A stretch of DNA of 64,000 bases, from assembly GCF_056712565.1 (NCBI RefSeq), contig NZ_CM160072.1. One strand, written 5' to 3'. A program made the translations under genes and the position numbers. The notes under the pieces are model-generated. The model made no database searches. It was not told the DNA's origin and saw nothing but the letters and a program-made list of their open reading frames with translations. Every line of letters begins with the position of its first letter. Within the stretch, counting starts at the first letter, position 1. Below are positions 15,751 to 17,774 of the stretch, one piece after another.

Positions 15751-15778
15751 ACGGTTCTCTGATGAGGACCGTTTTTTT
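15751..15778 (+). terminator. Probable rho-independent terminator after carB
   Basis: acggt...accgt stem followed by T7 run. Confidence 0.4.
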
Positions 15779-15779
15779 G

Positions 15780-16490
15780 TGCACAGAAAACCCCCAGCTA
15801 GGCTGGGGGTTCCGGAAAGCTTTCAGCTTTGAGCCAGTTATTAAAACCCCTTTTGATTTGTTAAAACACCTTGCGGTCTGGCAACTGCAAGTGTCAAACA
15901 AGAAATCAAAAGGGGGTCCCAATGGGGAACGAAAAGAGCTTAGCGCACACCCGATGGAACTGTAAATATCACATAGTATTTGCGCCAAAATACCGAAGAC
16001 AGGTGTTCTACAGAGAGAAGCGTAGAGCAATAGGCTGTATTTTGAGAAAGCTGTGTGAGTGGAAAAGTGTACGGATTCTGGAAGCTGAATGCTGTGCAGA
16101 TCATATCCATATGCTTGTGGAGATCCCGCCCAAAATGAGCGTATCAGGCTTTATGGGATATCTGAAAGGGAAAAGCAGTCTGATGCCTTACGAGCAGTTT
16201 GGTGATTTGAAATTCAAATACAGGAACAGGGAGTTCTGGTGCAGAGGGTATTACGTCGATACGGTGGGTAAGAACACGGCGAAGATACAGGATTACATAA
16301 AGCACCAGCTTGAAGAGGATAAAATGGGAGAGCAGTTATCGATTCCCTATCCGGGCAGCCCGTTTACGGGCCGTAAGTAACGAAGTTGGATGCAAATGTC
16401 AGATCGTGTGCGCCTGTTAGGGCGCGGCTGGTAAGAGAGCCTTATAGGCGCATTTGAAAAACCTCCGGCTATGCCGGAGGATATTTATTT
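15780..16490 (+). mobile_element. IS200-type insertion sequence (IS200/IS605 family), about 0.71 kb; boundaries approximate
   Basis: Contains a 152-aa HuH Y1 transposase gene; subterminal imperfect palindromes cccccagctaggctggggg (15791-15809) and cctccggctatgccggagg (16462-16480); carB-caiF spacer is about 710 bp longer than in K-12 (from memory). Confidence 0.8.
15922..16380 (+). CDS. tnpA: IS200 transposase TnpA (Y1 HuH family)
   Basis: ORF 15871..16380 trimmed to ATG 15922 (MGNEKSLAHTRWNCKYHIVFAPKYRRQ...), 152 aa; SD ggggg upstream. Confidence 0.9.
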   Translation: MGNEKSLAHTRWNCKYHIVFAPKYRRQVFYREKRRAIGCILRKLCEWKSVRILEAECCADHIHMLVEIPPKMSVSGFMGYLKGKSSLMPYEQFGDLKFKYRNREFWCRGYYVDTVGKNTAKIQDYIKHQLEEDKMGEQLSIPYPGSPFTGRK

Positions 16491-16669
16491 GCCCATTAAG
16501 TAAATCTTTTGGGGAATCGATATTTTTGATGACATAAGCAGGATTTAGCTCACACTTATCGACGGTGAAGTTGCATACTATCGATATATCCACAATTTTA
16601 ATATGGCCTTGTTTAATTGCTGCAAAACGAGTCATAGCCAGTCTTTTAATTTGTGAAACTGGAGTTCGT

Positions 16670-17065
16670 ATGTGTGAAGGATGTGTTGAAAAACCACTCT
16701 ATTTGTTAATCGCCGAATGGATGATGGCTGAAAACCGGTGGGTGATAGCAAGAGAGATCTCTATTCATTTCGATATTGAACACAGCAAGGCGGTTAATAC
16801 CCTGACTTATATTCTGTCGGAAGTCACAGAAATAAGCTGCGAAGTTAAGATGATCCCTAATAAGCTGGAAGGGCGGGGATGCCAGTGCCAGCGACTGGTA
16901 AAAGTGGTTGATATCGATGAGCAAATTTACGCGCGCCTGCGCAATAACAGCCGGGATAAATTAGTCGGCGTAAGAAAGACGCCGCGTATTCCTGCCGTTC
17001 CGCTCACGGAACTTAACCGCGAGCAGAAGTGGCAGATGATGTTGTCAAAGAGTATGCGTCGTTAA
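16670..17065 (+). CDS. caiF: Transcriptional activator of carnitine metabolism CaiF
   Basis: ORF 16565..17065 trimmed to ATG 16670 (MCEGCVEKPLYLLIAEWMMAENRWVIAREIS...), 131 aa. Confidence 0.9.
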   Translation: MCEGCVEKPLYLLIAEWMMAENRWVIAREISIHFDIEHSKAVNTLTYILSEVTEISCEVKMIPNKLEGRGCQCQRLVKVVDIDEQIYARLRNNSRDKLVGVRKTPRIPAVPLTELNREQKWQMMLSKSMRR

Positions 17066-17094
17066 TGTCATTTCGTTGATACCGTGCGACCTGG

Positions 17095-17180
17095 TCGCTG
17101 GATGCGATGCTGGCGCATCTTATCCGGCCTACGGTTGCTTTACAGCCAGGTCGGATAAGGCGTTTATGCCGCATCCGACG
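17095..17180. repeat. REP element between caiF and caiE
   Basis: gatgcgatgctggcgcatcttatccggcctac ... ggataaggcgtttatgccgcatccg palindromic REP units. Confidence 0.55.
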
Positions 17181-17183
17181 ATG

Positions 17184-17774
17184 TTACCGTTTCGGCGTCA
17201 CATCCGTCGTCCCCTGCAAACGGGGGCGATTTTCCTCCATTTGCCTCAGTGGCTGCGTTTCATGTAACGCTGCATGACAGCGCCCGACAAGATCCTGATA
17301 CTCTTTGGTATTCAACCGTTTCCAGTGTAACTCGTCGTCACTCACGCTGCGTACAGCGCGGGCTGGCGTACCCATCAACAACTGGCGTTTCTCGCCGCGA
17401 AAGCCCGCTTTGACAAAGCTCATAGCGGCAACAATGCTCTCTTCGCCAATGACCGCGCCATCCATAATCACGCTGTTCATCCCGACCAGTGCATCGCGAC
17501 CAATCACACAACCATGCAGGATCGCTCCGTGCCCGATATGACCGTTTTCCCCAACGATGGTGTCAGTGTCGCAGTAGCCATGCATAATGCAGCCATCCTG
17601 AATATTGGCTCCCGCTTGCACGATCAACCGCCCGTAGTCACCACGCAGTGAGGCGAGTGGGCCGATGTAGACACCGGCTCCCACAATCACATCGCCAATC
17701 AATACTGCACTGGGATGGACAAACGCCGTCGGGTGAACAACCGGAATTAACCCCTCAAAGGCGTAATAGCTCAC
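17184..17774 (-). CDS. caiE: Carnitine operon protein CaiE (hexapeptide-repeat transferase family)
   Basis: ORF 17184..17795; start set to GTG giving 196 aa ([20 protein letters not shown]...). Confidence 0.85.

What the first reader, a model, noticed from the sequence alone, without database searches (positions are those of the whole stretch)
15791..16480. Matched subterminal palindromes delimit the IS200 unit
CCCCCAGC-TAG-GCTGGGGG near the left end and CCTCCGGC-TAT-GCCGGAGG near the right end are related imperfect palindromes of the kind recognised by Y1 HuH transposases on single-stranded DNA. They give sequence-internal support for the element ends independent of the transposase ORF.
Basis: partly seen in the sequence, partly recalled or inferred. 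Interest (0 to 1): 0.2.

Follow-up and report, generated by a model that had tools for sequence, protein, structure and literature searches.

The report
IS200 end hairpins, already known
The two small matching DNA hairpins are real and sit just inside the two ends of an ordinary IS200C insertion sequence in E. coli; they are the family's known end structures, so this is a correct but unsurprising finding.

Summary
CCCCCAGC-TAG-GCTGGGGG (15791-15809) and CCTCCGGC-TAT-GCCGGAGG (16462-16480) are perfect 8-bp stems with 3-nt loops. They differ by two compensated stem positions and one loop base.

Both lie inside a 711-bp insertion, 15779-16489, with ends uncertain by 2 nt. An empty carB-caiF site defines this insertion. 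It is IS200C: the TnpA gene at 15922-16380 is intact and matches Y1_Tnp at 1.9e-36, and 100%-identical copies are annotated IS200C in RefSeq. The hairpins are subterminal, starting 12 nt inside the left end and ending 9 nt inside the right end.

In 80 related loci from Proteobacteria, Firmicutes and Saccharibacteria, both hairpins keep their position, geometry and a shared template (GAAAA-CCnCnnGn-Tnn-...), with many compensatory changes. Y. pestis IS1541A carries the identical pair. This fits recognition of both ends by one protein, as shown for IS608 and ISDra2, but binding by IS200 TnpA has not been tested.

The left hairpin is also the published bidirectional terminator of IS200 (nt 12-34).

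Side result: these elements sit immediately 3' of intrinsic terminators. The left flank ends in TTNTT in 56 of 63 sites, and the element itself ends in TTATT.

Verdict: already known, low interest.

The parts
15751..15778 (+). Intrinsic terminator of carB: hairpin 15751-15772 plus a T-run 15772-15778. This is host flank and the insertion target.
   Evidence: The terminator scan finds it. It is present and uninterrupted in the empty site of UPEC 536. Eight of eight independent E. coli IS200C copies abut such a terminator.
15774..15778 (+). TTTTT, the last 5 nt of the left flank: the proposed left cleavage and target site (C_L). It is not part of the element.
   Evidence: The left flank ends in TTNTT in 56 of 63 distinct sites. 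Placing the cleavage 3' of this motif is an inference from the IS608 mechanism (PMC3201880).
15779..16489 (+). IS200C insertion sequence, 711 bp. The ends are ambiguous by up to 2 nt because the flank and the element both end in TT.
   Evidence: Comparison with the empty site. BLAST matches to independent plasmid copies and to IS1541A end at exactly 1-711. Identical copies are annotated IS200C in RefSeq.
15786..15790 (+). GAAAA immediately 5' of the left hairpin: a candidate guide sequence (G_L).
   Evidence: It is more than 90% conserved in alignment A1 and the same motif precedes the right hairpin. The guide role is inferred and the pairing test was inconclusive.
15791..15809 (+). Left subterminal hairpin CCCCCAGC-TAG-GCTGGGGG (extended form 15789-15811). 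It is the proposed TnpA binding site and also the published bidirectional terminator of IS200.
   Evidence: It forms the first helix of the Rfam STnc490 match (146 bits). Covariation is shown. The terminator role is from PMC4513863 and PMC5435999.
15847..15915 (+). [quoted passage not shown] It is also the region complementary to the antisense RNA art200.
   Evidence: Inverted repeat I1, the predicted fold, the Rfam STnc490 match, and PMC4513863.
15922..16380 (+). tnpA, a 152-aa Y1 HUH transposase with H61-I62-H63 and the catalytic Y125.
   Evidence: Pfam Y1_Tnp at 1.9e-36. It is homologous to solved TnpA structures 2EC2, 2F4F, 2A6M/2VJV and 2XM3. Y125F is used as the catalytically dead mutant in PMC4513863.
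16409..16452 (+). A second, inner hairpin of the right end (TGCGCCTGTTAGG ... CCTTATAGGCGCA). Its role is unknown.
   Evidence: Inverted repeat I6 and the predicted fold. A smaller hairpin (GGC-TAT-GCC) occupies the same place in the Firmicutes relatives.
16456..16461 (+). GAAAAA immediately 5' of the right hairpin: a candidate guide sequence (G_R).
   Evidence: Conserved in alignment A2. The guide role is inferred.
16462..16480 (+). Right subterminal hairpin CCTCCGGC-TAT-GCCGGAGG. It is the proposed TnpA binding site and is terminator-like on both strands.
   Evidence: The terminator scan finds it on both strands. Covariation is shown. The 3' end of the Rfam Ysr202 model aligns to it on the minus strand.
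16485..16489 (+). TTATT, the last 5 nt of the element: the proposed right cleavage site (C_R).
   Evidence: TTATT occupies this position in 48 of 79 distinct right ends, and TTTTT in 9. Sequence diverges immediately after it among E. coli copies.

Best explanation
The two palindromes are the left and right subterminal hairpins of an IS200C insertion sequence (IS200/IS605 family, IS200 group) inserted at the carB terminator.

Proposed mechanism, by analogy with IS608 and ISDra2:
- On the single-stranded top strand (the tnpA-sense strand, the + strand here), each hairpin is bound by one site of the dimeric Y1 HUH transposase TnpA.
- The enzyme cuts 3' of TTNTT in the left flank, 12 nt 5' of the left stem.
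- It also cuts 3' of the element's own terminal TTATT, 9 nt 3' of the right stem.
- The A-rich GAAAA just 5' of each hairpin probably positions these T-rich sites.
- The excised single-stranded circle reinserts 3' of another TTNTT, in practice the T-tract of an intrinsic terminator.

The left hairpin also acts at the RNA level as a bidirectional terminator that shields tnpA from outside transcription. The right hairpin, followed by a T-rich tail on both strands, probably does the same at the other end.

What is shown: the hairpins, the element ends, the absence of terminal inverted repeats, the conservation and covariation, the shared template, the target motif, and (from the literature) the left hairpin's terminator activity. 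What is inferred: TnpA binding, the exact cleavage positions and the guide role.
For: Identity of the element:
- A 711-bp insertion relative to the empty site, with no terminal inverted repeats.
- TnpA matches Y1_Tnp at 1.9e-36 and carries the HUH motif and Y125.
- 100%-identical copies are annotated IS200C.

Conservation of the hairpins:
- A left hairpin was found in 74 and a right hairpin in 73 of 81 elements examined (the 80 fetched relatives plus the window copy), at constant positions.
- Left hairpin: 97.6% of cells paired and 121 cells changed on both sides, against 35 in shuffles. Sliding the partner by 1-3 columns drops pairing to 30-44%.
- Right hairpin: 89% paired and 74 double changes, against 19 in shuffles.

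Evidence for one recognising protein:
- Both ends share the invariant positions CCnCnnGn, a loop beginning with T and a 5' GAAAA. This is more than a terminator would need.
- The 5' arms of the left and right hairpins are more alike within an element than between elements: 5.9 versus 5.2 of 8 positions, exceeded in 0 of 10,000 permutations. Three elements have identical arms.
- IS1541A carries the identical pair.

Target and strand:
- The left flank ends in TTNTT in 56 of 63 sites, and the right end is TTATT in 48 of 79.
- GC skew is positive on the + strand and tnpA is co-oriented with carB. This places the tnpA-sense strand on the lagging-strand template, as the family prefers (PMC5027513).

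Family mechanism: PMC3201880 and PMC6006769. Terminator role of the left hairpin: PMC4513863 and PMC5435999.
Against: - No direct evidence was found that IS200 TnpA binds these hairpins. All structural and biochemical work cited is on IS608 and ISDra2.
- The IS608 hairpins are imperfect, with an extrahelical T that matters for binding (PMC3201880). The IS200 hairpins are perfect, and their stems read the same on both strands. Strand choice must therefore come from the loop and the flanks.
- The hairpins in the relatives were selected by requiring at least 7 of 8 pairs, which inflates the percentage paired.
- Pairing between the proposed guide and cleavage sites could not be demonstrated. A-rich and T-rich stretches pair in any register.
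- The element ends are ambiguous by 2 nt, and a 709-bp element with a TT duplication fits the sequence equally well.
Confidence: 0.82

Rival explanations
1. The hairpins are purely transcriptional insulators. The left one stops transcription coming in from carB. The right one ends tnpA transcription and blocks antisense transcription from the caiF side. They play no part in transposase recognition.
For: The left hairpin is experimentally a strong bidirectional Rho-independent terminator that stops about 85% of upstream transcripts (PMC5435999, PMC4513863). The right hairpin scores as terminator-like on both strands. In Yersinia an sRNA model (Ysr202) ends at the equivalent right-end hairpin on the minus strand.
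Against: - A terminator needs a stable stem and a U-tract, not specific bases. Yet positions 1, 2, 4 and 7 of the stem, the first loop base and the 5' GAAAA are conserved at both ends across phyla.
- On the + strand the left hairpin is followed by only two T (TTCC or TTCA).
- Left and right arms co-vary within elements.
- Spacing to the element ends is constant.
- Every characterised member of the family uses such hairpins as transposase binding sites (PMC3201880, PMC6006769).
Confidence: 0.1
2. The palindromes are host intergenic features, such as terminators or REP-like repeats of the carB-caiF spacer, that happen to flank the transposase gene.
For: The region is intergenic. A genuine host terminator lies just upstream at 15751-15778.
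Against: - Both palindromes are absent from the empty carB-caiF site and lie inside the 711-bp insertion.
- They accompany the element at other E. coli loci (cof, rnb, plaP, glnS, potE, sseA) and on plasmids.
- The pattern occurs nowhere else in the window.
Confidence: 0.01
3. The similarity between the two hairpins is a chance resemblance between two unrelated GC-rich stems.
For: About one perfect 8-bp stem with a 3-nt loop is expected by chance in 64 kb (64,000 x 4^-8, my own arithmetic).
Against: - 16 of 19 bases are identical, and both stem differences are compensated.
- 0.17 matches to the joint pattern are expected, and the pair was found.
- The same relationship recurs in 66 related elements.
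Confidence: 0.01

Closest known systems
IS200 of Salmonella and its E. coli and Yersinia variants IS200C and IS1541A (IS200 group of the IS200/IS605 family)
   Same: - Same size class: 711 bp here, 707 bp published.
- A single tnpA gene with the HUH motif and Y125.
- The left inverted repeat is at nt 11-33 here, against the published nt 12-34.
- The same 5'UTR stem-loop and art200 region (Rfam STnc490, 146 bits).
- IS1541A has both hairpins base for base.
- Identical copies are annotated IS200C in RefSeq (PMC4513863).
   Different: Nothing of substance. This is one more copy, at a carB-caiF site that is occupied in 128 of 5,426 complete E. coli genomes.
IS608 (Helicobacter pylori) and ISDra2 (Deinococcus radiodurans), the mechanistic paradigms of the family
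   Same: - A homologous TnpA (E = 1e-17 and 1.5e-15 to the solved structures).
- Subterminal hairpins at both ends.
- No terminal inverted repeats.
- Insertion 3' of a short specific sequence that abuts the left end.
- The element's own last bases form the right cleavage site.
- A short conserved motif 5' of each hairpin foot (PMC3201880, PMC6006769).
   Different: - The IS608 hairpins are imperfect with an extrahelical T. Those of IS200 are perfect 8-bp stems with 3-nt loops.
- Spacings differ: 19 and 10 nt in IS608, about 10-12 and 7-9 nt here.
- Cleavage sites differ: TTAC and TCAA in IS608, TTNTT and TTATT here. The left and right sites of IS200 look alike, as do the two candidate guides.
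- IS200 has no tnpB.
- The IS200 left hairpin doubles as a transcription terminator.
REP sequences and their TnpA(REP)/RAYT proteins
   Same: Small GC-rich hairpins with a conserved 5' tetranucleotide, recognised on single-stranded DNA by a Y1 HUH protein (PMC6006769).
   Different: REPs are dispersed in hundreds of copies without an adjacent transposase gene. These two hairpins occur only as the ends of the element: there are two matches in 64 kb, both in the IS.

Membership tests
IS200/IS605 family, IS200 group | Encodes a Y1 HUH transposase (Pfam Y1_Tnp) with the HUH motif and a single catalytic tyrosine | tested here: met
   Y1_Tnp at 1.9e-36 over profile positions 2-121 of 121. H61-I62-H63 and Y125 can be read in the ORF and align to solved TnpA structures.
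IS200/IS605 family, IS200 group | tnpA only, no tnpB, and an element of about 0.7 kb | tested here: met
   The insertion is 711 bp and contains one 152-aa ORF that has a family match.
IS200/IS605 family, IS200 group | No terminal inverted repeats and no target-site duplication | tested here: inconclusive
   The ends GTGCAC... and ...TTTATT are not inverted repeats. The flank and the element both end in TT, so the sequence alone cannot separate two readings: no duplication with a 711-bp element, or a 2-bp TT duplication with a 709-bp element.
IS200/IS605 family, IS200 group | Subterminal hairpins at both ends, some distance inside the cleavage sites | tested here: met
   The stems start 12 nt inside the left end and finish 9 nt inside the right end. 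They are conserved with covariation in relatives.
IS200/IS605 family, IS200 group | Insertion 3' of a specific short sequence that abuts the left end, with orientation-specific insertion | tested here: met
   The left flank ends in TTNTT in 56 of 63 distinct sites. The left end is always on the side of the upstream co-directional gene's terminator.
IS200/IS605 family, IS200 group | Guide sequences 5' of each hairpin foot that base-pair with the cleavage sites | tested here: inconclusive
   GAAAA is conserved 5' of both hairpins and is complementary to the T-rich sites. Three pairing registers tested on alignment A2 gave no decisive covariation.
IS200/IS605 family, IS200 group | TnpA binds the hairpins and cleaves only the top strand of single-stranded DNA | not testable with these tools
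   This needs biochemistry. It is inferred from IS608 and ISDra2 (PMC3201880).
IS200/IS605 family, IS200 group | The active strand lies preferentially on the lagging-strand template | tested here: met
   Cumulative GC skew of the + strand rises across the window and tnpA is co-oriented with carB. A single copy is only weak evidence. The family rule is from PMC5027513.
IS200C (the named isoform) | Near-identity to copies annotated IS200C | tested here: met
   100% identity over the element to copies in CFT073 and other strains annotated 'IS200/IS605-like element IS200C family transposase'.
Rfam RF01405 STnc490 (IS200 5' region RNA) | Score above the gathering threshold with the model's structure | tested here: met
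   146.4 bits against a threshold of 56, covering model positions 1-124 of 124 at 15789-15912. The first helix of the model is the left hairpin.

The most novel reading that the evidence does not exclude
IS200-group elements may recognise intrinsic terminators as structured targets. A GC-rich hairpin followed by a 6-11-nt T-rich tail ending in TTNTT looks like the element's own right end, which is a hairpin plus ATATTTATT. On this reading the transposase, or the excised circle, would select terminators by right-end mimicry on single-stranded DNA, rather than by the pentanucleotide alone. That would explain why all 8 independent E. coli copies examined, and 35 of 63 copies across phyla under strict criteria, sit exactly at the end of a terminator T-tract.
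Probability: 0.25. Interest if true: 0.5.

Novelty: already known. Interest (0 to 1): 0.12.

Why it matters
For annotating this window, the result fixes the element at 15779-16489. It also shows that the carB terminator and the caiF upstream region are otherwise intact.

More generally it matters little. Subterminal hairpins are the textbook signature of IS200/IS605 elements, and the left hairpin of IS200 has been published as a terminator since the 1990s.

The modest added value is comparative. The left and right hairpins follow one shared sequence template with compensatory evolution across phyla. The left-flank target (TTNTT at terminator T-tracts) matches the element's own right terminus. 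Together these make a concrete, testable model for the cleavage sites of IS200, which has never been dissected biochemically as IS608 has.

Tried and rejected
- **Older IS200 papers.** I tried to read Beuzon and Casadesus 1997 (PMC146608), Beuzon et al. 1999 (PMC148624), Barabas et al. 2008 (PMC2680152) and the 2015 Microbiology Spectrum review by DOI. None is held. Statements about the IS200 ends therefore rest on PMC4513863 and PMC5435999, and I found no published description of the IS200 right-end hairpin specifically.\n- **Guide and cleavage-site pairing.** I looked for covariation at the right end in three registers: a simple stem extension, an extension with a bulged +1 base, and an IS608-like pairing of the 4 nt 5' of the foot with the last 4 nt. 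All pair well, but so do the slid controls, because the sequences are A-rich opposite T-rich. A few suggestive co-changes appear (GAAGAA with GTTCC; T at -2 with A at +7). The result is inconclusive.\n- **A Salmonella reference copy.** The one fetched from the plasmid collection (L092) is degenerate at its right end and was not usable.\n- **The exact element ends.** Further copies could not resolve the 2-nt ambiguity, because every left flank and every right terminus ends in TT.\n- **Host-feature and chance explanations.** Both were rejected.

Full report
**1. What is in the sequence**

- The left one is CCCCCAGC-TAG-GCTGGGGG at 15791-15809. It extends by two A:T pairs to 15789-15811.
- The right one is CCTCCGGC-TAT-GCCGGAGG at 16462-16480.

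Each is a perfect 8-bp inverted repeat around a 3-nt loop, so "imperfect" is not the right word. The two differ at stem positions 3 and 6, both compensated on the opposite arm, and at one loop base.

The repeat finder lists them as inverted repeats and also as a 23-nt direct repeat pair, AAAACCCCCAGCTAGGCTGGGGG and AAAACCTCCGGCTATGCCGGAGG. As single-stranded DNA each forms the hairpin on either strand, with z-scores of -3.5 to -4.8. A degenerate pattern covering both matches nowhere else in the window, where 0.17 matches are expected.

**2. What element they belong to**

- The ORF at 15922-16380 (152 aa) matches Pfam Y1_Tnp at 1.9e-36. It is homologous to the solved TnpA structures of Sulfolobus, IS608 and ISDra2.
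- The HUH motif is H61-I62-H63. The tyrosine at position 125 is the residue mutated in the catalytically dead control of PMC4513863.
- The left 124 nt match Rfam STnc490 at 146 bits, and the first helix of that model is the left hairpin.
- A megablast search of complete E. coli genomes finds 100%-identical copies annotated "IS200/IS605-like element IS200C family transposase".
- The same carB-caiF insertion is present in 128 of 5,426 genomes. Most genomes have the empty site.

**3. The true ends**

Aligning the window with the empty site of UPEC 536 (...GGACCGTTTTTTTT|GCCCATT...) shows a 711-bp insertion. The left flank ends in T's and the element ends in ...TTATT, so the junction can be drawn in three ways: 15777-16487, 15778-16488 or 15779-16489.

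I prefer 15779-16489, for three reasons:
- Sequence diverges immediately after ATTTATT in every independent copy.
- BLAST matches to plasmid copies and to Y. pestis IS1541A end at exactly these positions.
- This reading puts both cuts 3' of the same kind of pentanucleotide.

The sequence alone cannot exclude a 709-bp element with a TT duplication.

On the preferred reading the hairpins are subterminal. The left stem begins 12 nt inside the left end, or 10 nt counting the AA:TT extension. The right stem ends 9 nt before the right end, or 7 nt counting the extension. The published map of Salmonella IS200 puts the left inverted repeat at nt 12-34 (PMC4513863). Here it is at nt 11-33.

**4. Comparative evidence**

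A scan of one genome per species returned 80 loci encoding TnpA relatives at 66-91% identity. They come from Enterobacterales, Vibrio, Desulfovibrio, Sutterella, many Firmicutes and Saccharibacteria.

Among 81 elements (these 80 plus the window copy), a hairpin of the same geometry lies 106-142 nt upstream of the start codon in 74. Another lies 65-109 nt downstream of the stop codon in 73.

| Hairpin | Cells paired | Cells changed on both sides | Same in shuffles | Paired when partner is slid 1-3 columns |
|---|---|---|---|---|
| Left | 97.6% | 121 | 35 | 30-44% |
| Right | 89% | 74 | 19 | 31-51% |

Up to five pair types occur at a single left-hairpin position. The caveat is that I picked hairpins by requiring at least 7 of 8 pairs, so the percentage paired is inflated. 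The compensatory changes, the fixed positions and the conserved flanks do not depend on that filter.

Both ends follow one template:
- GAAAA, then CCnCnnGn, then a loop beginning with T, then the complementary arm.
- The left hairpin is followed by TTC. The right hairpin is followed by AT and a T-rich tail.

Stem positions 1, 2, 4 and 7 are essentially invariant at both ends. Within an element the left and right 5' arms agree at 5.9 of 8 positions, against 5.2 for shuffled pairings. None of 10,000 permutations reached the observed value. Three elements have identical arms at both ends. IS1541A on the Y. pestis pMT plasmid has both hairpins base for base.

**5. How it most likely works**

In IS608 and ISDra2, dimeric TnpA binds the left and right subterminal hairpins on the top strand of single-stranded DNA. 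It cuts at sites some distance away, and those sites are positioned by base interactions with a short guide just 5' of each hairpin foot. The left site lies in the flank and is also the insertion target. The right site is the last bases of the element (PMC3201880, PMC6006769).

The IS200C anatomy maps onto this scheme:

| Feature | Left end | Right end |
|---|---|---|
| Hairpin | 15791-15809 | 16462-16480 |
| Candidate guide | GAAAA, 15786-15790 | GAAAAA, 16456-16461 |
| Proposed cleavage site | flank TTTTT, 15774-15778 | terminal TTATT, 16485-16489 |

Across 63 distinct left flanks, the last five bases are TTTTT (34), TTATT (8), TTGTT (7) or TTCTT (7). TTATT occupies the terminal position in 48 of 79 distinct right ends. 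Similar candidate guides at the two ends fit similar cleavage sites at the two ends.

I could not demonstrate the guide pairing by covariation, because A-rich and T-rich stretches pair in any register. TnpA binding and the cut positions are therefore inferences.

The tnpA-sense strand is the G-rich strand of the window and is co-oriented with carB. This places it on the lagging-strand template, as the family prefers (PMC5027513).

**6. A second, experimentally shown function**

The left inverted repeat of IS200 is a strong bidirectional Rho-independent terminator. It stops about 85% of incoming transcripts and so protects tnpA from outside transcription (PMC4513863, PMC5435999).

The right hairpin scores as terminator-like on both strands. 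The 3' hairpin of the Yersinia sRNA model Ysr202 aligns to it on the minus strand.

Could the hairpins be terminators only? The base-specific conservation shared by both ends, the constant spacing to the termini and the co-variation of left and right arms argue against that. Terminator activity and transposase recognition are not mutually exclusive.

**7. Side observation on targets**

In all eight independent E. coli sites examined, the left end abuts the intrinsic terminator of the upstream gene, and tnpA is co-directional with that gene. The sites are downstream of carB, cof, a hypothetical gene, rnb, plaP, glnS, potE and sseA.

Across phyla:
- The 45 nt to the left of the element fold at a median of -19.4 kcal/mol, against -9.2 for a control stretch 100 nt further upstream (p = 1e-16).
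- 35 of 63 left flanks meet strict terminator criteria, against 0 of 63 controls.

A recent preprint reports an excess of terminator-like sequences upstream of IS200/IS605 elements and reads it as a limit on transposase expression (bioRxiv 10.1101/2025.07.22.666184). My data show that part of that signal is the insertion target itself. The target, a hairpin plus a T-rich tail ending in TTNTT, resembles the element's own right end. Whether the hairpin is required, or only the T-tract combined with selection for harmless sites, remains open.

**8. Verdict**

- The hairpins are perfect, not imperfect.
- They are subterminal, and the element spans 15779-16489.
- Transposase binding is inferred, not shown.
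- The left hairpin has a known terminator role.

This is a new copy of a well-known element, and its end structures are already described. Interest is low.

Noticed in passing
window 15751-15778; loci L002, L003, L085, L086, L088-L091, and most of L005-L084: IS200-group elements sit immediately 3' of an intrinsic terminator of a co-directional upstream gene. The left flank ends in TTNTT in 56 of 63 distinct sites, and 35 of 63 are strictly terminator-like against 0 of 63 controls. The target (a hairpin plus a T-rich tail) resembles the element's own right end.
   Followed up: partly
L004 (E. coli FY26, NZ_CP101741.1), locus positions about 470-1560: At the same carB-caiF site, strain FY26 carries a partial tandem duplication. 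The carB terminator flank, the left end and the first ~195 nt of tnpA occur twice, with left hairpins at 492 and 873, followed by one complete element. This could be a real rearrangement or an assembly artefact.
   Followed up: no
window 16409-16452: There is a second, inner hairpin in the right end (TGCGCCTGTTAGG ... CCTTATAGGCGCA). A smaller hairpin (GGC-TAT-GCC) occupies the same place in the Firmicutes relatives. Its role is unknown.
   Followed up: no
window 16460-16595 (+) and 16457-16648 (-): Two weak Rfam matches are driven by the right hairpin. STnc490 scores 20 bits because the right hairpin resembles the left one. Ysr202 scores 32 bits because the terminal hairpin of that Yersinia sRNA model aligns to the right hairpin on the minus strand. 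The second match suggests that a Yersinia sRNA ends at an IS1541 right end.
   Followed up: no
window 17040-17210: There are two sub-threshold matches to Rfam naRNA4 (REP-derived nucleoid-associated RNA) downstream of caiF. They probably mark a REP/BIME cluster between caiF and caiE.
   Followed up: no
window 16490-16670: The IS lies 180 bp upstream of the caiF start codon (ATG at 16670), between the carB terminator and the caiF regulatory region. Any effect on caiF expression was not examined. The insertion is present in 128 of 5,426 complete E. coli genomes.
   Followed up: no
plasmid hits H46-H53 (for example NZ_CP010305.1, pO157) and H37-H42: Many E. coli plasmids carry isolated IS200C fragments without tnpA. 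One class is a right-end-only piece (element nt 571-711, 92% identity). The other is a left-half piece (nt 1-337). These are remnants that retain a single hairpin.
   Followed up: no
L010, positions about 1160-1190: In Enterobacter sp. Bisph1, the right end of the element is followed within about 10 nt by a left-end-like sequence (AACCTCCCCAGTCAGGCTG). This suggests tandem or nested IS200-like copies.
   Followed up: no
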